DNA of 52,611 nt from a virus (Duplodnaviria > Caudoviricetes). Made by a program: the position numbers and the translations under genes. This document shows, piece by piece, positions 14,529-49,480 of this stretch (position 1 is the stretch's first letter; the number at the start of each line of letters is the position of its first letter). The stretch is taken from positions 1 to 52,611 of IMG/VR virus record IMGVR_UViG_3300047378_000193; one strand, written 5' to 3'. The notes under the pieces were generated by a model. It saw only the letters and a program-made list of their open reading frames with translations. It made no database searches and was not told the DNA's origin.

Positions 14529-16085
14529 ATGTCAGACAAAATTGTTAAAAACTTGAATTTTGGAGAAGACGCCAAGATTACAGTGTTTAAAGGTATAGAG
14601 AAACTAACAAAAGCAGTTAGCTCTACATTAGGAGCTAGCGGTAAATGCGTTATATTAGAAGACGGTAGTGGTAAACCAGTTATAACCAAAGATGGTGTAA
14701 CTGTAGCTGATTCAATAGTATTATTAGACCCCGTAGAGAATATGGGTGCCACTCTTTTAAAAGAAGCCGCTAGAAAAACAGTTAAAGAAGCGGGAGATGG
14801 GACGACTACTGCCACGGTATTAGCTCACTCTATACTCAAACAAGCTTACGAGCTTGACAAGGATTACAATAGTAGAGACTTAAAAAACGGTATTAACACC
14901 GCTGTTGAAAAAGTTGTTAAATATTTAGAAAAAAATTCCATACAAGTAACTGGTGACATGATTGATTCTGTGGCCACTATATCGACAAATAACGATCCAA
15001 GCTTAGGTAAGGTTATTGGAGATGCTTTTAGATCAGTAGGAGAGACCGGTGTGGTTATGATGGAGCCTACAAGTGAGTCTGAAACTTATGTTGACGTTGT
15101 AGACGGAATACAATATGAAAAAGGATTAACAAACTCTAATTTTATAACAAACAGGTCAACCAAAGAAGCTGTACTTGAAAACCCTTTAGTATTGCTAGTT
15201 GATTCACCTATAGAAAGTATTAGGCAAATTCAATCTGTATTAGAGTACGTTATTAAAAATACAAAGTCATTACTTATTGTTGCTGATATAGATCAGCCAG
15301 TCTTATCAGCGTTAGCGATGAATAAGGTTAAAGGAAATATAAAGGTAAATGTTATTAACGCACCTACCTTTGGTATCAATAAAAAAGATACACTAACGGA
15401 TTTATCTATGTTGACTGGAGCTACTATTATCAACGAGGATCTTGGAGATGATTTAGATCTTATATCGGTAGATAAGCTAGGTGAATGTGTTAGAAGTGTA
15501 ACTGGTGAACAAGATACTATTATACAAATAAAAGAAACACCAGAAGAAGTAAATGAACTTATTCGTAAAATTAAAGAACAGCTTGAGACTGAAAAATCTC
15601 CTGCAAATGTTATACGACTTGAAACTAGACTTGCACGTTTATCTGCTAAGGTTGCAATTGTCAAGGTTGGAGCGAATTCAGACATTGAACTTAAAGAAAA
15701 AACAGACAGAGTCGAAGACGCTATCTGTGCTACAAAAGCCGCAATCAAAGAAGGTATAATTCCAGGAGGAGGTATTACTCTGCTCAACGCGTCTACGTAC
15801 ATAAAAGCTAAGAACAAAGGCGAAGAAGTTTTATTAGAAGCTATAAAAGCGCCTTACGAGACTATACTATCTAACGCTGGTTTAGAATTAGTTTATCCTG
15901 ATAGAAAAAATAGAGGTTTAAACGTGGTTACAGGTAAAGACGTAAATATGGTACGAGCTGGCATTATAGATCCGCTACTGGTTACTAAAAGTGCCTTAAG
16001 AAATGCGGCTTCAGTAGCAACTACTATATTATCTACAGATTGTGTAATCAATAATTTAAGAGTTGGAGATGAAAGCAATAGGTAG
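14529..16085 (+). CDS. groEL: Group I chaperonin GroEL (no GGM tail)
   Basis: ITKDGVTVA, AGDGTTTATVLA, EKTDRVEDA, GIIPGGG, GIIDP. Confidence 0.97.
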   Translation: MSDKIVKNLNFGEDAKITVFKGIEKLTKAVSSTLGASGKCVILEDGSGKPVITKDGVTVADSIVLLDPVENMGATLLKEAARKTVKEAGDGTTTATVLAHSILKQAYELDKDYNSRDLKNGINTAVEKVVKYLEKNSIQVTGDMIDSVATISTNNDPSLGKVIGDAFRSVGETGVVMMEPTSESETYVDVVDGIQYEKGLTNSNFITNRSTKEAVLENPLVLLVDSPIESIRQIQSVLEYVIKNTKSLLIVADIDQPVLSALAMNKVKGNIKVNVINAPTFGINKKDTLTDLSMLTGATIINEDLGDDLDLISVDKLGECVRSVTGEQDTIIQIKETPEEVNELIRKIKEQLETEKSPANVIRLETRLARLSAKVAIVKVGANSDIELKEKTDRVEDAICATKAAIKEGIIPGGGITLLNASTYIKAKNKGEEVLLEAIKAPYETILSNAGLELVYPDRKNRGLNVVTGKDVNMVRAGIIDPLLVTKSALRNAASVATTILSTDCVINNLRVGDESNR

Positions 16086-16329
16086 AAATTTAATTATAAA
16101 AAAAATAAAAGAAGGGACCACTAAAACTAAAGGTGGTCTACTTCTTGCTGAATCACATAGAGAAGATATTAGATATATAGAAGCTAGTGTAATTTCTATC
16201 GGAAGTGATGTAGTTGGCGTTAGTGAAAATGATAAAATATTTTTCGATAGACACGCCGGTCACAAGATAGAAATAGATAGAGATTTTTATCATGTCATTA
16301 AACTAGAGGATATAGTTGTTGTTTTATGA
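16069..16329 (+). CDS. groES: Co-chaperonin GroES
   Basis: TKTKGGLLL mobile loop; VISIG; EDIVVVL end; ATG at 16069 overlaps the groEL 3' end. Confidence 0.9.
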   Translation: MKAIGRNLIIKKIKEGTTKTKGGLLLAESHREDIRYIEASVISIGSDVVGVSENDKIFFDRHAGHKIEIDRDFYHVIKLEDIVVVL

Positions 16330-18192: not shown

Positions 18193-18432
18193 ATGGCATT
18201 TAAAGTAAAAAGATTCATATCACCTCTTCATGTGAAAGAAGATCCTAAAAAACCAGAGATAAAAAAACCAAAGGCAGCAAAAGACGTCAAAGGATTTGAC
18301 GAGCAGTTTGAAACTGTTAAAGCAAAATATCCAAAATCAATGGTTACAAGAGTGAAAAACAAATTAGGTTCATATAGTGTTAGAAAAGGATCTGGTCAAT
18401 TTACATATACTCCAGGAAAACCAGTTGACTAA
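18193..18432 (+). CDS. Small basic hypothetical virion protein
   Basis: 79 aa; MAFKVK...SPLH N-terminus. Confidence 0.7.
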   Translation: MAFKVKRFISPLHVKEDPKKPEIKKPKAAKDVKGFDEQFETVKAKYPKSMVTRVKNKLGSYSVRKGSGQFTYTPGKPVD

Positions 18433-18833
18433 TGAAAAAGATATTAGAATTTTTCAGTACTAAAGTTTTTAAACAAGTTGGTGATGTAGTCGATGACTTA
18501 TTTACCAGCGAAGAAGAAAGGCTAGCCGCTAGAAATAAAATATTTAAAGTATTACAAGATGCACAATTAGAACTGCAAAAAATGCAAACCGAAATAATTG
18601 TAGCAGAAGCTAAAGGTAACTGGTTACAAAGAAGCTGGAGACCGATACTAATGCTTTCATTTGGTTTTATAATTATATATACTAAATTTATATCACAACT
18701 ATCTACACATTTAATAACACCTGCGTTAGAACCAGAATTCTGGAATTTACTTGAAATAGGTATTGGAGGTTATGTAATAGGTAGAAGTGGTGAAAAAATA
18801 GTAGATAAATTAGCACCAATGTTTAAAAAGTAA
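18432..18833 (+). CDS. Holin (GTA 3TM-holin-like)
   Basis: EAKGNWLQRSWRPILM followed by hydrophobic segments and GGYVIGRSGEK. Confidence 0.8.
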   Translation: MKKILEFFSTKVFKQVGDVVDDLFTSEEERLAARNKIFKVLQDAQLELQKMQTEIIVAEAKGNWLQRSWRPILMLSFGFIIIYTKFISQLSTHLITPALEPEFWNLLEIGIGGYVIGRSGEKIVDKLAPMFKK

Positions 18834-19156: not shown

Positions 19157-19383
19157 TGAGTTCTGTAATTAGAAAAATAAGTATAGGTTCTGATTACAAA
19201 AATGATGCAATGCATTACGCTGTAAGTCAGCAAGTTTATGGAGGTCATACTATATCAGCTATACTATACTCCGAAGAAGATGACTCTTACAGTATATATA
19301 TTAAAAAGAAAGACGAGATAATGCCATGGAAGAAGTTTAATTCTAACATGGCTATATCCGTTGAATACGACTTAGAATATTAA
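19156..19383 (+). CDS. Hypothetical protein
   Basis: 75 aa; TAATG-coupled on both sides. Confidence 0.75.
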   Translation: MSSVIRKISIGSDYKNDAMHYAVSQQVYGGHTISAILYSEEDDSYSIYIKKKDEIMPWKKFNSNMAISVEYDLEY

Positions 19384-19988
19384 TGAATAGTTTATTTGAC
19401 TTTATCGTAAAACCCATAAAAAAGAGATACGACAACGAAATCAAAGTAGGTGACAAAAGCCTAATAACTAATGCAAATACTGAAGACTTTAAAGCTGTTA
19501 GCAATAAAGCTGTTGTAGTCTCTACTCCATCAGCTTATAAAACGCTTATTAAAAAAGGCGATATTGTTATTATACATCACAACGTTTTTAGAAGTTTTTT
19601 TGACATTAGAGGTAAAAGAAAAGATAGTAGATCTAAATTTATAAATGATCTATACTTTTGTTCACCTGATCAAATATATTTATACAAAAACTCTGGTCAT
19701 TGGAAATCTTTTCAAGATAGATGCTTTGTAAAACCATTGTTAGATAATAATGATCTAACGCTGGATAAAGAGAGAAAGCTTATAGGAATACTAAAATATG
19801 GTAATAGTTCCTTAGAAGCCGTTAAAATTGCTCCTGGAGACTTAGTAGGTTATACGCCTTACGGTGAGTTTGAATTTATAATTGATGGAGAGCGATTATA
19901 TTGTATGAAATCAAATGATATTGTAATTAAATATGAATACAAAGGAGACGAAGAAGAGTATAATCCAAGCTGGGCAAGCAGCAGTTGA
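19383..19988 (+). CDS. Tandem double GroES-like protein
   Basis: Two units starting FIVKP and CFVKP, each with a GD-hydrophobic motif (KKGDIV, PGDLV); C-terminal EFIIDGERLYCMKSNDI parallels GroES EVKIDGEEYLILRESDI. Confidence 0.7.
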   Translation: MNSLFDFIVKPIKKRYDNEIKVGDKSLITNANTEDFKAVSNKAVVVSTPSAYKTLIKKGDIVIIHHNVFRSFFDIRGKRKDSRSKFINDLYFCSPDQIYLYKNSGHWKSFQDRCFVKPLLDNNDLTLDKERKLIGILKYGNSSLEAVKIAPGDLVGYTPYGEFEFIIDGERLYCMKSNDIVIKYEYKGDEEEYNPSWASSS

Positions 19989-20205
19989 AGAATTGATAAA
20001 GGTAGCTAAAGAAGCTATTGTAGATTCTGATGATGATATTTCTGCTGACAGATTGAAAAACGCTGCAGCTACAAAAAAACTAGCTATATTTGATGCTTTT
20101 GAAATACTTAAACGTATTGAAGACGAAGAGAATATGCTTAACGAAAAACCTGTAGAAAAGAAAGAAAAAGCTTTTAAAGGTTTTGCAGAAGGAAGATCCA
20201 AGTAA
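19933..20205 (+). CDS. Putative terminase small subunit
   Basis: 90-aa helical protein coupled directly to terL; positional call. Confidence 0.55.
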   Translation: MNTKETKKSIIQAGQAAVEELIKVAKEAIVDSDDDISADRLKNAAATKKLAIFDAFEILKRIEDEENMLNEKPVEKKEKAFKGFAEGRSK

Positions 20206-22415
20206 TGTACGAGCAATCACTATATAAAATACTACCTAATTATATAAAACCTAAAGTTTTAAATAAAAACAACAGGTATAACAAGTGGGCTTACGGTTAT
20301 AACAGTGAATTTGATATGATTGTTATCAGCAAGACTGGTAAGATAGGTGAAATTTACGAAATACAAAACATAAAAATAGCTTTACCTAAAGATGAAGACG
20401 TTGTCGCGTTCGAAGGAAATAAATGGAAACACATTGAATATCCTAAAGAGCTTTCAAAGATAAAATCAGTATTTGATTGGGACGAGCATCCTGTGCAATT
20501 TAAAGAAAAATGGTATGACTATATTGACGAAGAGTTTAAAAGACGTGAAAAAGGTTTTTGGTTTTATAACAAAGATAAGCCTTGTTACATTACTGGTACT
20601 CACTACATGTACCTGCAGTGGTCCAAAATTGATGTTGGGCAGCCAAACTTCAGGGAATCGAACAGATTATTCTTTATATTCTGGGAAGCTTGCAAAGCAG
20701 ATGTACGTTGTTACGGAATGTGCTATCTTAAGAACAGACGGTCAGGGTTTTCTTTCATGGCCTCAGGCGAGACGGTTAATCAAGCTACAATATCCACAGA
20801 CTCTAGATTCGGAATTTTATCAAAGTCTGGCCCAGATGCGAAAAAGATGTTTACTGATAAAGTTGTACCCATCTCGGTTAATTATCCCTTCTTCTTCAAA
20901 CCAATCCAGGACGGTATGGACAGGCCGAAGACGGAGCTTGCCTATAGAGTACCCGCGTCAAAATTCACCAGAAAAAAACTTGACACCAATGAAAAGCTAC
21001 AGGAAATCACCGGGCTCGATACAACGATCGACTGGAAGAACACCGGGGACAACTCGTACGACGGTGAAAAATTAAAGCTTTTAGTTCACGATGAGAGTGG
21101 AAAGTGGGAAAAACCTACAAATATACTAAACAACTGGAGAGTTACAAAAACCTGTTTAAGATTAGGTTCTAGAGTTATAGGTAAGTGTATGATGGGAAGC
21201 ACGTCAAATGCTTTAGATAAAGGTGGGGAGAATTTTAAAAAATTATATTATGATTCCGACGCAACAAAAAGAAACCGCAACGGACAGACTAGCTCGGGAC
21301 TATATAGTTTGTTCATTCCTATGGAGTGGAACTACGAAGGATTCATTGATTCTCATGGATTACCTGTATTCGATACACCGGAAGAGGAAGTTTTAGATCC
21401 TTTAGGTGATATTATAAATCAAGGAGTAATAGAACATTGGCAGAATGAAGTTGATGGCTTGAAAGATGATCAAGACGGATTAAATGAATACTATAGGCAG
21501 TTTCCAAGAACAGAGGAACACGCTTTTAGGGATGAGGCTAAAGAGTCTTTATTTAATCTAACTAAAATATATGAGCAAATAGATTATAATGCTGATCTAC
21601 AGAATACTTCTACTGTAACAACAGGTAGTTTTATGTGGGAAAACGGGGTAAAAGACAGTAGAGTATTGTTTTACCCTAACAAAGATGGAAGATTTAAAAT
21701 ATCTTGGGTTCCACAGGTTGAATTACAAAATAGAATAGTTGTTAAAAATGGTATTAAATACCCTGGTAACGAGCACTGTGGAGCTTTTGGCTGTGATAGT
21801 TATGATATATCAGGTACTGTTGATAAAAGAGGTTCTAATGGATCTCTACACGGTTTAACAAAATTCTCTATGGAAAACGTACCACCAAATGTATTTTTTC
21901 TAGAGTATATAGCTAGACCTCAAACTGCTGAGATATTTTTTGAAGATGTGTTAATGGCTTGTGTATTTTACGGTATGCCTATATTAGCAGAGAATAATAA
22001 ACCTAGATTATTGTATCATTTTAAAAGAAGAGGATATAGAGGTTTTTCAATGAATAGGCCAGATAAAATATATAATAAATTATCTATAACTGAAAGAGAA
22101 ATTGGTGGTATACCTAACTCTAGTGAAGATATAAAACAAGCACACGCTGCAGCTATAGAATCATATATAGAAGAGAACGTAGGTAACACACCTAATGGTT
22201 ATGGTAGTATGTATTTTCAGAGAACATTAGAAGACTGGGCTAAATTTAATATAAATAACAGAACAAAACACGATGCTTCTATAAGTTCCGGTTTAGCTAT
22301 AATGGCTTGTAACAAGAATAGATATATGCCTACCGCTAAAAGAGAACGTAAAAATATAGACTTAGGTATAAAACGATACGATAACAAAGGAATGTCGTCA
22401 AAAATTATAAGATAA
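20205..22415 (+). CDS. terL: Terminase large subunit
   Basis: Walker A-like KNRRSGFS; Walker B LLVHDESGK; GSTSN coupling motif; nuclease motifs FGCDSYD and HDASIS. Confidence 0.93.
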   Translation: MYEQSLYKILPNYIKPKVLNKNNRYNKWAYGYNSEFDMIVISKTGKIGEIYEIQNIKIALPKDEDVVAFEGNKWKHIEYPKELSKIKSVFDWDEHPVQFKEKWYDYIDEEFKRREKGFWFYNKDKPCYITGTHYMYLQWSKIDVGQPNFRESNRLFFIFWEACKADVRCYGMCYLKNRRSGFSFMASGETVNQATISTDSRFGILSKSGPDAKKMFTDKVVPISVNYPFFFKPIQDGMDRPKTELAYRVPASKFTRKKLDTNEKLQEITGLDTTIDWKNTGDNSYDGEKLKLLVHDESGKWEKPTNILNNWRVTKTCLRLGSRVIGKCMMGSTSNALDKGGENFKKLYYDSDATKRNRNGQTSSGLYSLFIPMEWNYEGFIDSHGLPVFDTPEEEVLDPLGDIINQGVIEHWQNEVDGLKDDQDGLNEYYRQFPRTEEHAFRDEAKESLFNLTKIYEQIDYNADLQNTSTVTTGSFMWENGVKDSRVLFYPNKDGRFKISWVPQVELQNRIVVKNGIKYPGNEHCGAFGCDSYDISGTVDKRGSNGSLHGLTKFSMENVPPNVFFLEYIARPQTAEIFFEDVLMACVFYGMPILAENNKPRLLYHFKRRGYRGFSMNRPDKIYNKLSITEREIGGIPNSSEDIKQAHAAAIESYIEENVGNTPNGYGSMYFQRTLEDWAKFNINNRTKHDASISSGLAIMACNKNRYMPTAKRERKNIDLGIKRYDNKGMSSKIIR
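20473..21075 (+). CDS. Candidate overprinted +1-frame gene inside terL (signal-peptide or lipoprotein-like N-terminus)
   Basis: 200 stop-free codons; local shift to C/G third positions in terL; likely start ATG 20515. Confidence 0.45.
   Translation: MIGTSILCNLKKNGMTILTKSLKDVKKVFGFITKISLVTLLVLTTCTCSGPKLMLGSQTSGNRTDYSLYSGKLAKQMYVVTECAILRTDGQGFLSWPQARRLIKLQYPQTLDSEFYQSLAQMRKRCLLIKLYPSRLIIPSSSNQSRTVWTGRRRSLPIEYPRQNSPEKNLTPMKSYRKSPGSIQRSTGRTPGTTRTTVKN
21250..21396 (+). CDS. Second candidate +1-frame ORF inside terL (48 aa)
   Basis: MIPTQQKETATDRLARDYIVCSFLWSGTTKDSLILMDYLYSIHRKRKF; coincides with a GC-richer patch. Confidence 0.3.
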   Translation: MIPTQQKETATDRLARDYIVCSFLWSGTTKDSLILMDYLYSIHRKRKF

Positions 22416-37464: not shown

Positions 37465-39129
37465 ATGAGTTATAGAAATCCACCTATAATCGTAGATAGA
37501 TCTACAGACGTCTGGGGAAAAGCAATAGCTAATTTCGGTAAGCAAGTAGCACAGGGAATACTAAGTATTGGTGAGGCAAAGAAAAAAGCTGGACAAGCTC
37601 AAGCTGCAAAAGCTGCAAAAGACGCTGCTGCAATGCAAAAGTTAACGACAGCTACTAGAGAATCTTACATGAGTGAATTTAGAGATAAATACATTGCATT
37701 GAAAAAGAAAGATGGTAATTTAGCTGAGCAGTTTAAGACACAGACAATGATTGACCTAAATGGTGCTGACGGAAAGGTAGGAGCTATTGATGCTCAAGTG
37801 CAGTTGTCTTTAAATAGCAATTTAAGTGCTGATCAAATAAAAGAATACAACGATATAGTTGATAGTGCTAAAATGTATCAAGCTCAAGCTGTTGATGGTT
37901 TTGGTAAGGTTATATCTGGTATAGATAATGTAAACTCTAAATCAGATCAATTGTTAGCTAAACCTGGTGGTTGGACGTTTAAAGGTAATAACAATTTTGA
38001 AAGACTACAAAATCAATTAGCATACTACGCTGTTGATGTTGACAAGATGATAAACCCTGATGTTAAAGAGTCTAGGAAATTAACAAAAGGTGAAAATGGT
38101 GAAAACTTTTTAGAAGCTACTACGTTGGTTCCTGTGGATCAATTTAATGAAGGTGGTGCTTTCTCAGGTCAACTAACCTCAGAGCAAGAAAAAGGAATGG
38201 AAAAAGTTGTTGAAGACGGTAAAGAGTATTATAAGTTTTCTTTTAAAAGAGATGCAAATGAATGGGATGGTGAATTTATAGTAGATATAGATGAACTACC
38301 TAATTACTCTGAGGTTTACCAAGAGGCCGGAATAGAAGATAAGAAAGGTACAATAAATCAAAAACTTACTGGGCAAATTGAAATAGCTGAAGGTGGCTAC
38401 GAGGATAAGGAGGAATTAATAGATATTGAAGCCATAAGAAACAACAGAGGTTTAAACGATATTATGTTAGGTAAAGCTGGTGCAATAGAGGAAGGTGATG
38501 ATGCATCAAAGCAGGCTTTTCTTAACTTTGCACTCGGTAAAGGTGGTACAACTATTAAAGAGTTTAACAAACAATACACTACATCTGAAGGTAGAATACA
38601 GCACATAAAAAACTTATTAATAGATGATTCTATTAGTAAGAAATTTGGGGAAAAATATAGTAGTAGAAAAGCTACTTCAGATGACGTTGAACGTTTAAGA
38701 GCTTTCAACCCTGCTTCCACAGTTTCCGAAGGTGATGAAATTTTATTCAGTAACATTGGTAGTAAAAAAGCTAAAGTAGAAGATCCTGATAAAGTAACAG
38801 AAGGCGATATAAAGAGAGCTGAGTATAAAAAAATGGTAGAATACCTTGACACTAGATTTACACCTGATAATCTAACATTTGAATCAGTTGAAAGTTTAGC
38901 TAACGAAGAAGGTATAACAGTTGTGCCTATGTATGCTGGAGAAGATGATGAAAAACCTTCAGAGATAAAAGTAGGTAAGCTAACAATAAAGCCAGGTGAT
39001 AGCCATGAGAAAATAAAGAAAATACTACTAATAGCCGGCGGTGTTAAACCTAAAGACGCACAAGCTTTAATTGACGGTAAAGAAATATTATTTAGACCAA
39101 ACACAGGTAATCTACCAATAAAAAAATAA
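37465..39129 (+). CDS. Internal virion / ejection protein (middle)
   Basis: 554 aa; amphipathic N-terminus; lies between the small and giant internal proteins. Confidence 0.65.
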   Translation: MSYRNPPIIVDRSTDVWGKAIANFGKQVAQGILSIGEAKKKAGQAQAAKAAKDAAAMQKLTTATRESYMSEFRDKYIALKKKDGNLAEQFKTQTMIDLNGADGKVGAIDAQVQLSLNSNLSADQIKEYNDIVDSAKMYQAQAVDGFGKVISGIDNVNSKSDQLLAKPGGWTFKGNNNFERLQNQLAYYAVDVDKMINPDVKESRKLTKGENGENFLEATTLVPVDQFNEGGAFSGQLTSEQEKGMEKVVEDGKEYYKFSFKRDANEWDGEFIVDIDELPNYSEVYQEAGIEDKKGTINQKLTGQIEIAEGGYEDKEELIDIEAIRNNRGLNDIMLGKAGAIEEGDDASKQAFLNFALGKGGTTIKEFNKQYTTSEGRIQHIKNLLIDDSISKKFGEKYSSRKATSDDVERLRAFNPASTVSEGDEILFSNIGSKKAKVEDPDKVTEGDIKRAEYKKMVEYLDTRFTPDNLTFESVESLANEEGITVVPMYAGEDDEKPSEIKVGKLTIKPGDSHEKIKKILLIAGGVKPKDAQALIDGKEILFRPNTGNLPIKK

Positions 39130-47012: not shown

Positions 47013-47474
47013 ATGGATAAAATAAGCGATCATATAACATTACGCGAGGGTATAAATTCTTATACAGCTAAAAGAATGGGTATAGAAAACATACCTGATG
47101 AGTATCAGATTACTAACATGTATATATTAGCTCATAAGGTTTTTGAACCTTTACGTAAATGGGTTGGCGGTCCTATAAAAATAAACTCTTTTTTTAGATC
47201 AATAGAGTTAAACGAAGCAATAGGAGGTAGTTCAACATCACAACATTGTGAAGGCAGAGCTATGGATATAGACGATACTTATGGTTGTAAAACTAACTCT
47301 GAGATGTTTAACTATATTAAAGACAACTTAGATTTTGATCAGTTGATATGGGAGTTTGGAGATGATGAAGAGCCAAATTGGATTCATGTAAGCTACTGTT
47401 CAACAGATGAAAATAGAAAAAGATGCTTAAAAGCATATAAAGATAACGGAATAACTAAATACGAAATAATATGA
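47013..47474 (+). CDS. Peptidase M15A-family endolysin
   Basis: INSFFRS, SQHCEGRAMDI and WIHVSY zinc-ligand motifs. Confidence 0.9.
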   Translation: MDKISDHITLREGINSYTAKRMGIENIPDEYQITNMYILAHKVFEPLRKWVGGPIKINSFFRSIELNEAIGGSSTSQHCEGRAMDIDDTYGCKTNSEMFNYIKDNLDFDQLIWEFGDDEEPNWIHVSYCSTDENRKRCLKAYKDNGITKYEII

Positions 47475-47761: not shown

Positions 47762-49480
47762 TTAGCCATCACAAGCTAAACAATCTTCATTCATTGCTTG
47801 CTGAGCTATATCACCACGTAAAACAGATTCTGTTCTAGTATAATATAAGGTTTTAACACCTTTCTTCCAAGCATCAAAATGAACTTTATTCAACCACTTA
47901 GGTGTAGCTTCAGACGGAAAAGCTAAGTTTAAACTAACCGACTGATCTATATATTGTTGCCTCAGTCCAGCTTGATTAACTAATTCCAGTTGATTAATCT
48001 CTTTAAACGTTTTAAAAACTTCCTTAGCAGGTATGTCGTGAAGTAAAGTAACACCATCAAGAGCATCGATACCCTGTACGCTACCTCCGTCAGCCAATAT
48101 TTTATCCCATGTTTCATTGTTATTAATTTTTAGTTTTCTTAATAGCTTTACTAACGTCGGATTTTTCCTAATAAAAGTCCCCTTTGCACTCTGTTCTGTA
48201 AAAACATTTGCAGCCCACGGCTCAATACCTGGACTAACATTACCGCTAAGCTTACTATTACTGACAGTAGGAGCGATAGCCCTAAGATGAGTGTTACGCA
48301 TACCCGTGCCAACACACCAAAGAGGTTCCCCATAGATCTCAGCAAGATCTCTAGAGGCTCTTTCACTTTCGATTTTAATCTGGCTAAATATCTTCCTTGT
48401 TTCAAACTGAGCAAGTAAACCTTCAAAAGGAATGCTTTTTTCTTGGAGATAGGTGTGCCATCCAAGTACACCCAGCCCAAGTGCTCTTCCTTTTTGAGCA
48501 GAACGAACGGCATTTTCAAAACCTCTAAGTCCTTTTGCTCTTTGAATAAACTCCTCCATAACGCCGTCAAGAAACCACGTAGCGTCGTATATAAGGTTAG
48601 TGTCTTTCCATTCTTCATATTTTGCTAAATTTAATGATGACAAACAGCATACAAAGCTATGATTCTCATCTGTTGTTAATGTTATCTCCGAACATATGTT
48701 AGTCATATGTACTTTTAATCCGTTGTCTTTATATGCTTCTGGATTTGCTTTATTAACATTTCCTTTAAACATAATATACGGTTCTCCAGTTGACTTTCGT
48801 TTTCTAAGTAATTTACTCCATCTAGATCTTGCTTCTTTATCTCCTTGTTCAAGCTTACGCATAAACTTGTCACCAATAATTGCGCACTGATGTAAGTTAA
48901 GCGATTGTCTGTTAACATCTCCTTTAGGTTCCCTGATTTCAAGCCACTCCTCGAAGTCATCATGTTCAATGTTGATATTAACTGAGGCAGCTCCACGACG
49001 GACACTCCCTTGATTAGTTGCAAGAATTGTTGAGTCATATATCTTGCAGAAAGGTACGACTCCATCTGATGTTCCATTACCTGTTATTCTAGCGCCAGCG
49101 GGTCTAATTTGATTTATACCGATACCAACTCCACCGCCATGCTTAGCGAGTAGCATCATCTCTAAATTTTTACTACCTATGTCCTGTATCGAATCTGCTA
49201 CATCAATCCCAAAACAGCTAATAGGCAAACCGCGGTCAGTACCAGTGTTGCTGAGTACAGGGCTAGCAAGACAAAGCCAGCCATTCCAGATGTATTCAAA
49301 AAACTTTTCAGCCATTTCAGGTTTATAAAGTCTACGAGCAACCGTTTTAGCGACTCTTTGGTATGCTTCTCTAGGCGTTTCTCCGTCAAGTAAATATCCC
49401 CCGGATATTGTCTTCTTGTATACGTCCGTATTACCCCACGCAGGGTAATCTTCTCCTTTGATCCATTCATTATTCCACAT
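47762..49480 (-). CDS. nrdA: Class I ribonucleotide reductase alpha subunit (compact, no ATP cone)
   Basis: PISCF, TNICSEI, AIAPTVS, IDQSVSLN, KTLYY and C-terminal CLAC. Confidence 0.95.
   Translation of the reverse strand: MWNNEWIKGEDYPAWGNTDVYKKTISGGYLLDGETPREAYQRVAKTVARRLYKPEMAEKFFEYIWNGWLCLASPVLSNTGTDRGLPISCFGIDVADSIQDIGSKNLEMMLLAKHGGGVGIGINQIRPAGARITGNGTSDGVVPFCKIYDSTILATNQGSVRRGAASVNINIEHDDFEEWLEIREPKGDVNRQSLNLHQCAIIGDKFMRKLEQGDKEARSRWSKLLRKRKSTGEPYIMFKGNVNKANPEAYKDNGLKVHMTNICSEITLTTDENHSFVCCLSSLNLAKYEEWKDTNLIYDATWFLDGVMEEFIQRAKGLRGFENAVRSAQKGRALGLGVLGWHTYLQEKSIPFEGLLAQFETRKIFSQIKIESERASRDLAEIYGEPLWCVGTGMRNTHLRAIAPTVSNSKLSGNVSPGIEPWAANVFTEQSAKGTFIRKNPTLVKLLRKLKINNNETWDKILADGGSVQGIDALDGVTLLHDIPAKEVFKTFKEINQLELVNQAGLRQQYIDQSVSLNLAFPSEATPKWLNKVHFDAWKKGVKTLYYTRTESVLRGDIAQQAMNEDCLACDG

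What the first reader, a model, noticed from the sequence alone, without database searches (positions are those of the whole stretch)
20473..21075. 200-codon overprinted ORF inside the terminase ATPase domain with a lipoprotein-like leader
Seen: the +1 frame is stop-free for 603 nt. In this AT-rich genome, TTA/ATA/GTA codons followed by a purine normally close that frame quickly, and the ORF track shows no plus-strand nested ORF of 60 aa or more in the 2.4-kb portal or 7.9-kb giant gene. terL codons here shift to C/G endings (for example ACC GGG CTC GAT ACA ACG ATC GAC). From ATG 20515 the product reads basic, hydrophobic, Cys (KKVFGFITKISLVTLLVLTTC), an imperfect lipobox. Established: lambda Rz1 is a +1 nested lipoprotein, and terminases are sensed by Avs defences. 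Inference: a hidden gene, possibly a spanin (none is otherwise evident) or a co-expressed counter-defence factor.
Basis: partly seen in the sequence, partly recalled or inferred. Interest (0 to 1): 0.72.

Follow-up and report, generated by a model that had tools for sequence, protein, structure and literature searches.

The report
Hidden gene inside a terminase gene
A second, unannotated protein-coding gene is written in another reading frame inside the DNA-packaging (terminase) gene of a widespread group of marine phages; it seems to encode an exported, membrane-tethered protein and is a clear case of a virus making a new gene by overprinting an old one.

Summary
The +1 frame of terL (20205-22415) is stop-free for 203 codons (20464-21075), and no synonymous shuffle reproduces this (0 of 5000). 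It is a real, lineage-restricted overlapping gene. Of 81 close TerL sequences, 47 have no +1 stop in the span, against about 0.06 expected; 25 have 4-13 stops. In a sister clade, 0 of 81 are open. A local rise in third-position GC ends exactly at the nested stop codon, and it ends about 28-30 codons later in relatives whose nested ORF is longer. TerL-silent sites are pushed in opposite directions along the ORF: towards Leu/Val in an 11-residue hydrophobic core, and towards Ser/Thr/Pro/Arg in the tail. A C-T-C-S motif is fixed in 43-47 of 47. The product (186 aa from ATG 20515) has a basic leader, a hydrophobic core, an invariant Cys and a basic, disordered tail. That fits an exported, probably lipid-anchored protein. 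No family matches, and a classical dN/dS test gives no signal. The function is inferred. A canonical lipoprotein gene that some relatives carry in their lysis cassette never co-occurs with the nested ORF (0 of 21). This is suggestive but not significant after phylogenetic control. A spanin-like or other envelope role is plausible, not shown.

The parts
20205..22415 (+). terL (large terminase subunit, 736 aa), the older host gene
   Evidence: phrog_6681 E 2.4e-164 over residues 26-733. More than 600 relatives in IMG/VR. terL-frame dN/dS proxy 0.08-0.13.
20464..21075 (+). stop-free stretch of the +1 frame (203 codons, ending in TAA 21073-21075)
20515..21075 (+). nested gene as proposed: ATG 20515 to stop, 186 aa
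   Evidence: Among 49 ATG-started nested ORFs of 150 aa or more, 47 have an ATG 31 codons before the first Cys. Met at this site occurs in 45 of 47 open sequences against 13 of 25 closed. In some relatives a stop lies just after this position and a new ATG follows 4-5 codons later.
20515..20574 (+). basic n-region of the leader (residues 1-20, MTILTKSLKDVKKVFGFITK)
   Evidence: Read directly from the sequence. The AF2 model places a helix at residues 2-34 with pLDDT 53-69.
20575..20607 (+). hydrophobic core (residues 21-31, ISLVTLLVLTT)
   Evidence: The TerL four-fold sites P125, T129 and T131 carry T in 46-47 of 47 open sequences, giving Leu. Closed sequences show a T/A mix. Kyte-Doolittle hydropathy is 2.68 in open against 1.39 in closed sequences.
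20608..20622 (+). C-T-C-S-G motif (residues 32-36); Cys34 is the candidate lipidation or cleavage site
   Evidence: TerL Y135 is TAC in 47 of 47 (Thr, not Ile). L136 is xTG in 47 of 47 (Cys, not Tyr/Phe/Ser). Q137 is CAG in 43 of 47 (Ser, not Asn). Closed sequences are mixed at all three sites.
20623..21072 (+). polar, basic tail predicted to be disordered (residues 37-186; whole protein net charge +23)
   Evidence: pLDDT below 50 for residues 36-186. Tail hydropathy is -0.66 in open against +0.14 in closed sequences. 42 of 144 TerL-silent sites differ between open and closed after Bonferroni correction, mostly towards S/T/P/R. Composition.
20595..21075 (+). span of raised third-position GC in terL
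   Evidence: GC3 is 0.35-0.79 here against about 0.2 elsewhere. The rise ends at terL codon 289 in the 19 short-form relatives and at about codon 317 in the 28 long-form relatives, which matches each form's nested stop. It is absent in closed relatives.
18432..18833 (+). context: holin gene 1.7 kb upstream
   Evidence: PF11351 E 3.9e-11; phrog_3427 E 1.1e-31
47013..47474 (+). context: endolysin gene, directly after the 7.9-kb gene. The secreted-protein / TM96 / thioredoxin cassette seen in relatives is absent here.
   Evidence: phrog_894 E 2.8e-25; synteny

Best explanation
Window 20515-21075 is a genuine protein-coding gene overprinted in the +1 frame of terL.

Shown: selection keeps this frame open, and it shapes the encoded protein at TerL-silent sites.

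Inferred:
- The gene is transcribed with the late packaging genes.
- It is translated from its own ATG.
- Its N-terminus works as a Sec export leader: a basic n-region, an 11-residue hydrophobic core, then T-C-S.
- Cys34 is most likely lipid-modified and the leader removed by signal peptidase II. The imperfect lipobox (Thr at -1) is the best residue that the overlapping Tyr codon of TerL allows.
- The result is a membrane-tethered, strongly basic, disordered periplasmic polypeptide of about 150-185 residues.

The gene is accessory. It has been lost repeatedly, its length varies, and its start shifts by a few codons.

Most likely job (odds about 0.3 within this explanation): an envelope function late in infection, equivalent to that of the canonical lipoprotein that some relatives carry in their lysis cassette. 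That would mean outer-membrane disruption or regulation at lysis.
For: 1. Frame-specific stop avoidance.
- 47 of 81 sequences (the window plus 80 IMG/VR relatives at 76-85% TerL identity) have no +1 stop across the span.
- Local synonymous shuffles predict 2.8-6.5 stops in each. The mean P(0 stops) of 0.0012 gives about 0.06 such sequences expected.
- The 9 'few' sequences are still depleted (2.7 observed against 6.1 expected). The sister clade is at the null (8.3 against 9.2).
- TerL-silent sites are saturated among open pairs (p = 0.75), so openness is not inherited inertia.
- In the window, 16 TerL-silent single-base changes would create a nested stop.

2. High GC3 alone does not open the frame.
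- In the sister clade 0 of 81 are open, even at GC3 0.55-0.66.
- L077 and L081 (GC3 0.42-0.52 throughout) carry 9-10 stops.

3. The GC3 rise tracks the nested ORF. It ends at codon 289 in the short form (n = 19) and at codon 317-319 in the long form (n = 28). It shrinks in truncated forms and is absent in closed ones.

4. Silent-site selection runs in opposite directions along the ORF.
- T is favoured (Leu/Val) in the hydrophobic core.
- C/G is favoured (Ser/Thr/Pro/Arg) in the tail.
- T33, C34 and S35 are fixed.
- 42 of 144 silent sites differ from closed relatives.
- Codon identity in excess of shuffle is 0.131 in the region against 0.088 downstream in open sequences. In closed sequences it is 0.059 against 0.073.

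5. Start codon. An ATG lies 31 codons before the first Cys in 47 of 49 ATG-started ORFs. Alternative forms place a new ATG directly after a stop.

6. Leader type.
- The relatives' secreted proteins end their leaders in [AGS]-Q (by eye, more than 20 examples). This is the Bacteroidetes SPI 'Q-rule' (PMC5837995, abstract and passages).
- The nested ORF instead has Cys after its core, like the canonical lipoproteins of these phages.
- Apart from the holin and one small minus-strand protein, it is the only leader- or TM-bearing product found in the window.

7. Abundance.
- 213 called proteins match in a 5.8-billion-protein set.
- There are 153 representatives at E <= 1e-3.
- 582 of 600 candidate stretches in IMG/VR encode a relative.
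- No other family matches.

8. Relation to the lysis cassette.
- A 145-aa canonical lipoprotein (basic, +10 to +12) sits between a secreted protein and a 96-aa type-II membrane protein, just before a secreted thioredoxin and the endolysin.
- Of its 25 IMG/VR contigs, 21 hold the terL 5' part, and 21 of 21 lack the nested ORF.
- All 14 ORF-bearing records whose cassette region is covered lack that lipoprotein.
Against: - An OLGenie-style test shows no purifying selection on the nested protein. dNN/dNS is 0.89 (0.74-1.11) in open sequences, 0.90 in closed and 0.96 in the sister clade. The signal is in composition and a few sites, not in sequence.
- There is no expression evidence. RNA-library contigs cover the region but give no strand, start or frame.
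- The AF2 model is poor (mean pLDDT 40.8).
- The lipobox fails the [AGS] rule at position -1. No signal-peptide predictor could be run.
- 25 of 81 close relatives lack the gene. Complete or near-complete relatives exist with neither the ORF nor the lipoprotein (for example G047 at 100% and G060 at 91%). The function is therefore dispensable.
- The lipoprotein/ORF exclusion rests on only 5 phylogenetically independent pairs: 4.1 go the same way and 0 the opposite way, with a median sign-test p of 0.125. The raw Fisher p of 5.6e-6 ignores relatedness and biased sampling.
- The window's own genome type (G000, G043, G045) lacks the 96-aa membrane protein that would be the obvious partner.
- The ESM Atlas 'Lipoprotein' neighbours score only 0.77, which is within the range that shuffled proteins reach.
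Confidence: 0.6

Rival explanations
1. The product is an exported lipoprotein or membrane protein, but its job is superinfection exclusion or receptor masking (like T5 Llp or the Cor proteins), not lysis.
For: It shares the leader and tail architecture described above. Its accessory, patchy distribution (20 state changes on the TerL tree) is typical of host-interaction genes. Window-type genomes keep the ORF although they lack the TM96 cassette.
Against: It is embedded in a late packaging gene, whereas exclusion genes usually act early. The gene it excludes sits in a lysis cassette next to the endolysin. There is no homology to any exclusion family.
Confidence: 0.15
2. The hydrophobic segment is an uncleaved anchor or is irrelevant. 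The basic tail acts in the cytoplasm, for example as a decoy or inhibitor of terminase-sensing defences (Avs), or as a nucleic-acid binder made alongside TerL.
For: Net charge is +23 and the tail is predicted to be disordered. Co-expression with TerL is built in.
Against: Silent-site selection specifically maintains a leader-like core and a small-residue/Cys motif. An 11-residue core is short for a stable transmembrane helix. There is no PADLOC or anti-defence family hit.
Confidence: 0.07
3. The frame is reached by programmed +1 frameshifting from terL, giving a TerL N-terminus fused to a new C-terminus, rather than by independent initiation.
For: The frame stays open upstream of the ATG for up to about 70 codons in some relatives.
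Against: Many relatives have a +1 stop 6 codons before the ATG. The alternative-start forms have the stop directly before a new ATG. Met is kept in 45 of 47 open against 13 of 25 closed sequences. No conserved +1 slip site was seen.
Confidence: 0.04
4. There is no gene. The open frame is a by-product of a local GC-rich nucleic-acid element (a packaging signal, an RNA structure or a recombined segment) or of chance.
For: A classical dN/dS test gives no signal. The protein sequence is poorly conserved wherever TerL does not force it (mean column identity 57%).
Against: Stop depletion is frame-specific: +2 carries 15-38 stops in the same span. It exceeds what local codon usage predicts. GC-rich relatives are not open. 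Silent-site bias points to T in the core and to C/G in the tail. The GC3 boundary moves with the nested stop.
Confidence: 0.06

Closest known systems
Lambda Rz1 (o-spanin nested in the +1 frame of Rz)
   Same: Fully nested on the same strand in the +1 frame of a late gene. N-terminal export leader with a Cys after the hydrophobic core. Polar mature part rich in Pro/Ser/Thr. Gram-negative host. (The properties of Rz1 are recalled, not tested here.)
   Different: The host gene is terL, not an i-spanin gene. The product is 186-220 aa rather than about 60 aa. The lipobox is non-canonical (Thr at -1). No adjacent i-spanin exists, and the window lacks the 96-aa type-II membrane protein seen in relatives. 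A lysis role is not shown.
Single-gene lysis proteins overprinted in small phages (phiX174 E in D, MS2 L)
   Same: A de novo gene in the +1 frame of an essential structural gene. A hydrophobic N-terminal segment carries the constraint. The tail is basic, loosely constrained and tolerates change in length. (Recalled.)
   Different: This is a dsDNA tailed phage that already has a holin and an endolysin. The product is much longer. The leader looks cleavable rather than like a functional transmembrane domain.
The 145-aa cassette lipoprotein of relatives (L166:8104-8538; alignment A2), function unknown
   Same: Export leader plus Cys. Basic (+10 to +12) and rich in S/T/P/G/N, with a low-complexity tail. 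Never found with the nested ORF (0 of 21).
   Different: No homology (hhalign probability 0.3%). It has a canonical lipobox (..VSSC / ..FASC) and a strongly conserved 60-residue core. It is a free-standing gene that overlaps the TM96 gene by about 30 nt.
Long overlapping genes reported in bacteria and viruses (overprinting literature: PMC8227390, PMC6195259, PMC8850804; search listings and abstracts only)
   Same: An orphan, disordered, compositionally biased product. Detected through an open frame and silent-site bias.
   Different: None of the three literature searches listed a gene nested in a phage large-terminase gene.

Membership tests
Overprinted (nested, de novo) protein-coding gene | ORF lies wholly inside an older gene in another frame | tested here: met
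   20515-21075 lies inside terL 20205-22415, offset +1.
Overprinted (nested, de novo) protein-coding gene | Open frame exceeds a synonymous-codon null and is kept across diverged relatives | tested here: met
   0 of 5000 shuffles. 47 of 81 sequences have zero stops against about 0.06 expected. 0 of 81 are open in the sister clade.
Overprinted (nested, de novo) protein-coding gene | Constraint at silent sites of the host gene | tested here: inconclusive
   Site-specific codon bias and a GC3 rise bounded by the nested stop are present. However, dNN/dNS is 0.89 against 0.90 in controls, and silent sites are saturated.
Overprinted (nested, de novo) protein-coding gene | No relatives outside the overlap (orphan) | tested here: met
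   All 153 hits at E <= 1e-3 are the same family or its fragments, apart from one low-complexity match. No Pfam, PHROG, NCBIfam or PADLOC hit.
Overprinted (nested, de novo) protein-coding gene | Translation demonstrated | not testable with these tools
   Only RNA-library contigs without strand or start information are available.
Bacterial lipoprotein (signal peptidase II substrate) | Basic n-region and uncharged hydrophobic core before the Cys | tested here: met
   Residues 1-20 carry +5/-1. The core ISLVTLLVLTT is kept hydrophobic by silent-site choice.
Bacterial lipoprotein (signal peptidase II substrate) | Lipobox [LVI][ASTVI][GAS]-C (PROSITE-type rule, recalled) | tested here: not met
   Before Cys34 the residues are (T/I)-C-T. 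Position -1 is Thr in 47 of 47 sequences; only Thr or Ile are reachable under the TerL Tyr codon. My own lipobox scan found Cys32 only under a relaxed rule.
Bacterial lipoprotein (signal peptidase II substrate) | Invariant Cys at +1 | tested here: met
   Cys34 is present in 47 of 47 open sequences although Tyr, Phe and Ser are TerL-silent alternatives. Closed sequences show Y14, C10, F1.
Bacterial lipoprotein (signal peptidase II substrate) | Lipid modification and cleavage | not testable with these tools
   No predictor (SignalP, LipoP) and no experiment was available.
Two-component spanin, o-spanin subunit | Gene embedded in, overlapping or next to an i-spanin gene in the lysis cassette | tested here: not met
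   The gene is embedded in terL, 1.7 kb from the holin and 26 kb from the endolysin. No i-spanin-like protein was found in the window.
Unimolecular spanin (T1 gp11 type) | N-terminal lipoprotein signal plus C-terminal transmembrane domain | tested here: not met
   No hydrophobic segment follows residue 34 in the short or long forms.
Signal peptidase I substrate of Bacteroidetes | Gln directly after the leader (Q-rule, PMC5837995) | tested here: not met
   After the core the sequence reads C-T-C-S-G-(P/V/A)-(K/R). The first conserved Gln lies 10 residues after Cys34, preceded by N/S/H/Q.

The most novel reading that the evidence does not exclude
A lipoprotein gene born de novo inside terL has taken over the role of a canonical free-standing lysis-cassette lipoprotein (an o-spanin analogue) in a cosmopolitan lineage of marine Bacteroidota phages. 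That would be non-homologous replacement of an ordinary gene by an overprinted one. The two solutions would alternate between sister phages, and the lipobox would be shaped by the codons of the terminase it overlaps.
Probability: 0.25. Interest if true: 0.85.

Novelty: new variant of a known kind. Interest (0 to 1): 0.75.

Why it matters
- Long same-strand nested genes are thought to be rare in tailed dsDNA phages, and annotation pipelines discard them. Here one sits inside terL, the most conserved phage marker gene. It is present in hundreds of marine viral contigs and is supported by natural controls: sister phages with and without it.
- The case offers a dated gain-and-loss series for studying how an overprinted gene is born, how it constrains its host gene (GC3, codon choice, possibly TerL residues) and how it decays.
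- It warns that terL-based phylogenies and codon-usage analyses in this group carry a second layer of selection.
- If the link to the cassette lipoprotein holds, it also points to the still unknown outer-membrane step of lysis in Bacteroidota phages.

Tried and rejected
- tblastn of the nested product against 50,697 phage records found no match at E <= 1. The cultured relatives (TerL 64% identity or less) do not carry it.
- The region-only TerL tree could not tell recombination of the segment from in-situ loss. Only 9 of 75 inner branches were supported.
- The OLGenie-like dNN/dNS test gave no signal and is insensitive here, since controls gave 0.68-0.96.
- ESM Atlas: the nearest clusters are named 'Lipoprotein' but score 0.77, so this is only a lead.
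- Sequencing runs: near-identical DNA is held by runs from several marine studies. Four metatranscriptome runs hold contigs at least 90% alike over the region. Contigs give no strand, start or level. The uncovered stretch 20232-20447 coincides with the variable part of terL, so nothing is concluded from it.
- Complex prediction on the cassette lipoprotein (residues 21-145) with the 96-aa membrane protein (residues 38-96) returned no verdict: score 0.00 against a mark of 0.32. This is not evidence either way. The nested product itself was not sent.
- hhalign of the nested family against the cassette lipoprotein: probability 0.3%.
- 'Any canonical lipoprotein' versus ORF status across 27 whole records gave no clean complementarity. 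Three ORF-bearing records carry other small lipoproteins, and five closed records carry none (my own regex, not a validated predictor).
- Of the 15 ORF-bearing records searched for the lipoprotein, only 3 cover the cassette region. The other 12 are uninformative and were not counted.
- The antisense 235-aa ORF at 38397..39104 is not unusual (z = 1.5).
- Supplementary files of papers were not consulted.
Full report
**What is in the window**

The window is a 52.6-kb linear IMG/VR viral record, about 82% complete.
- terL runs 20205-22415 (736 aa; phrog_6681, E 2.4e-164).
- A holin gene lies upstream (18432-18833) and the portal gene downstream.
- An endolysin gene lies at 47013-47474.
- The nearest cultured relatives of this TerL infect Flavobacterium, Cellulophaga, Tenacibaculum and Maribacter, at 64% identity or less.
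- The secreted proteins of related records end their leaders in [AGS]-Gln (by eye, more than 20 cases). This is the Bacteroidetes signal-peptidase-I 'Q-rule' (PMC5837995; abstract and passages read).
- A Bacteroidota host is therefore inferred.

The +1 frame is open for 203 codons (20464-21075). The listed ORF is 20473-21075.
- Shuffling synonymous codons across terL never gives more than 141 open codons (0 of 5000 reach 203).
- Shuffling only within the span, which keeps its own codon usage, gives a mean of 5.8 stops and never zero (0 of 5000).
- Third-position GC is 0.47 in the span against 0.24 elsewhere in terL. Positions 1 and 2 are unchanged.
- Across 120 gene-by-frame tests in the window, this is the top outlier (z = 10.6).

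**Comparative test**

I fetched 80 IMG/VR relatives with 76-85% TerL identity (more than 600 exist) and built a codon alignment. The result is bimodal.

| Group | n of 81 (window included) | +1 stops in the span | GC3 in the span | GC3 in the rest of terL |
|---|---|---|---|---|
| open | 47 | 0 | 0.35-0.52 | about 0.2 |
| few | 9 | 1-3 | intermediate | |
| closed | 25 | 4-13 | no rise | |

Local synonymous shuffles give these expectations.

| Group | Observed stops | Expected stops |
|---|---|---|
| open | 0 | 2.8-6.5 per sequence (mean P(0) = 0.0012, so about 0.06 zero-stop sequences expected against 47 seen) |
| few | 2.7 | 6.1 |
| closed | 7.6 | 9.8 |
| sister clade | 8.3 | 9.2 |

- TerL-silent sites differ in 75% of comparisons among open pairs, so openness cannot be inherited inertia.
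- A sister clade (81 sequences, 62-68% identity to the window's TerL) has 4-15 stops in every member, including those with GC3 of 0.55-0.66. High GC3 by itself does not open the frame.
- The ORF does occur in some other 65-67% relatives (G055, G056, G061). It is therefore old and patchy.

**The GC3 rise follows the nested ORF**

- In the 19 relatives whose nested stop is at terL codon 289 (as in the window), GC3 falls from 0.49-0.79 to 0.27 at that codon.
- In the 28 whose stop is at codons 317-319, GC3 stays at 0.66-0.75 for about 25 more codons and then falls.
- Truncated forms lose the rise earlier. Closed forms never show it.

**Protein-level selection**

In this overlap, terL position 3 is the nested codon's position 2, so every silent terL change alters the nested protein. 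Open sequences choose silent bases in opposite directions along the ORF.
- In the hydrophobic core, the four-fold sites of TerL P125, T129 and T131 carry T in 46-47 of 47, giving Leu. Closed sequences show a T/A mix.
- Directly after the core, Tyr135 is TAC in 47 of 47 (Thr, not Ile). Leu136 is xTG in 47 of 47 (Cys, not Tyr/Phe/Ser). Gln137 is CAG in 43 of 47 (Ser, not Asn).
- In the tail, C/G endings dominate and give Ser/Thr/Pro/Arg instead of Leu/Ile/Met. For example, Ile274 is ATC in 43 of 46 open sequences, while it is ATT in 20 of 23 closed ones.
- 42 of 144 silent sites differ between open and closed after Bonferroni correction.
- Core hydropathy is 2.68 in open against 1.39 in closed sequences. 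Tail hydropathy is -0.66 against +0.14.
- Codon identity in excess of shuffle is raised only in the open group's span (0.131 against 0.088 downstream; closed 0.059 against 0.073).

Against this, an OLGenie-style estimate finds no classical purifying selection: dNN/dNS is 0.89 in open, 0.90 in closed and 0.96 in the sister clade. Selection therefore acts on openness, composition and a handful of sites, not on a defined fold. That matches the AF2 result: a helix at residues 2-34 and pLDDT below 50 for the rest (alignment A1 held 42 of the 47 open sequences, with L052, L056, L058, L061 and L064 left out).

**Start and length**

- Of the 81 sequences, 49 have an ATG-started nested ORF of 150 aa or more, and 47 of these have the ATG 31 codons before the first Cys (window 20515).
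- Seven more are open for 150 codons or more but have only GTG or TTG candidates.
- 25 are closed.
- In several relatives a stop lies just after that ATG position and a new ATG follows 4-5 codons later. This argues for independent initiation and for an N-terminus whose exact length does not matter, as expected of a cleaved leader.
- Lengths cluster at 186 aa and at 214-220 aa.

**What the product looks like**

The N-terminus reads MTILTKSLKDVKKVFGFITK-ISLVTLLVLTT-CTCSG. A 150-residue polar tail follows, and the whole protein has a net charge of +23.
- An 11-residue core is short for a membrane anchor and typical of an export leader.
- There is no Gln at a plausible SPI site.
- The three residues fixed by silent-site choice (Thr33, Cys34, Ser35) are what a lipobox would need at positions -1, +1 and +2, given that the TerL Tyr codon permits only Thr or Ile at -1.
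- The canonical rule ([GAS] at -1) is nevertheless not met, and no predictor could be run.
- I put export at about 0.65 and lipidation at about 0.4-0.5.

**Family searches**

- The family is abundant: 213 called proteins, 153 representatives, and 582 of 600 candidate stretches in IMG/VR (intactness was checked only for subsets).
- It is orphan, with no Pfam, PHROG, NCBIfam or PADLOC hit.
- The window's own ORF is not among the called proteins.

**Function**

The nested state is scattered on a TerL tree built without the span: 20 changes, of which at least 13 are forced by supported branches. Sister pairs differ, such as L013 (open) and L014 (closed). The gene is therefore accessory and is repeatedly lost or exchanged.

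Comparing a complete closed genome (G001) with a complete open one (G002) showed a shared cassette between the giant gene and the endolysin. It holds a secreted 400-aa protein, a 96-aa type-II membrane protein with an acidic helical ectodomain ('TM96'), and a secreted thioredoxin. G001 has an extra canonical lipoprotein gene (145 aa, basic) inserted just before TM96 and overlapping it.
- That lipoprotein occurs in 25 IMG/VR contigs. Of these, 21 hold the terL 5' part, and all 21 lack the nested ORF.
- On the TerL tree these 21 sit next to ORF-bearing relatives in several places.
- All 14 ORF-bearing records whose cassette region is covered lack the lipoprotein.

The caveats are substantial.
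- In an endolysin-selected sample, 30 records were searched and 27 held the terL 5' part. Of those 27, 8 had zero stops, 6 had one, 2 had two or three, and 11 had five or more. None has the lipoprotein.
- Closed genomes without the lipoprotein therefore exist, including complete ones.
- Only 5 phylogenetically independent pairs are available (median sign-test p of 0.125, which used the 19 of the 27 whose whole records I had fetched).
- The window's own genome type lacks TM96 altogether.

The exclusion is suggestive of functional equivalence or incompatibility, no more.

**Comparison with known systems**

- The arrangement works like lambda Rz1: a +1-nested lipoprotein-type gene. It also resembles the overprinted lysis genes of small phages, which have a hydrophobic head and a loose basic tail.
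- It fails the membership tests for o-spanins (not associated with an i-spanin gene) and for u-spanins (no C-terminal TMD). It fails the strict lipobox rule.
- Three literature searches (listings and abstracts only) returned no gene nested in a phage large-terminase gene.

**Verdict**

This is a real, new overprinted gene inside terL (about 0.85-0.9). It encodes an exported, probably lipid-anchored, disordered basic protein (about 0.6 for gene plus export). The function is unproven. A late envelope or lysis role is the leading guess, and exclusion or a cytoplasmic role are alternatives.

Noticed in passing
window 48151..48618 (-), inside gene 47762..49480 (-): A second candidate nested gene. 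The +1 frame of the 572-aa gene is open for 157 codons (z = 5.9, 0 of 300 shuffles reach it). It gives a 155-aa ATG ORF ending in a long hydrophobic stretch. In 16 relatives examined, 10 show at most one stop over the homologous span (the count includes the ORF's own stop), and G001, G002 and G007 show 5-7.
   Followed up: partly
window 14529-16085, 16063-16329, 19383-19988: The phage encodes a GroEL-like chaperonin (phrog_5725, E 2e-133) and two GroES-like proteins. The GroEL gene's +1 frame also has an unusually long open stretch for its composition (68 codons, z = 5.8).
   Followed up: no
L166:6197-8797 (G001) and L170:4981-7832 (G002): Relatives carry a cassette just before the endolysin gene. 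It holds one or two Sec-leader proteins, a 96-aa type-II membrane protein with an acidic coiled-coil ectodomain (phrog_1009, unknown function), and a secreted thioredoxin (PF00085, E 1.6e-7). In some there is also a basic lipoprotein whose gene overlaps the membrane-protein gene. This may be an undescribed lysis or envelope module of Bacteroidota phages. The window lacks it.
   Followed up: partly
window 38397..39104 (-), antisense in 37465..39129: A 235-aa antisense ORF looks striking but is expected from the host gene's composition (null mean 189 codons, z = 1.5).
   Followed up: yes
G002 (record behind L069), 939-1394 and 67374-67826: The endolysin gene and neighbouring genes occur at both ends of this 77-kb record. 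This suggests an assembly that runs past the genome's start (terminal redundancy or a concatemer), not a true duplication.
   Followed up: no
protein P0120: One member of the nested-ORF family was called on a 72.5-Mb ENA contig. This is presumably phage sequence inside or contaminating a large eukaryotic assembly.
   Followed up: no
L013/L014, L049/L057 and other sister pairs: Sister pairs that differ in nested-ORF state show relatively more TerL amino-acid change inside the span than pairs that share the state. By my arithmetic on the identities printed, the ratio of region to outside divergence averages about 0.87 for differing pairs against 0.56 for same-state pairs. This hints that the nested gene constrains TerL residues or that the segment recombines.
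   Followed up: no
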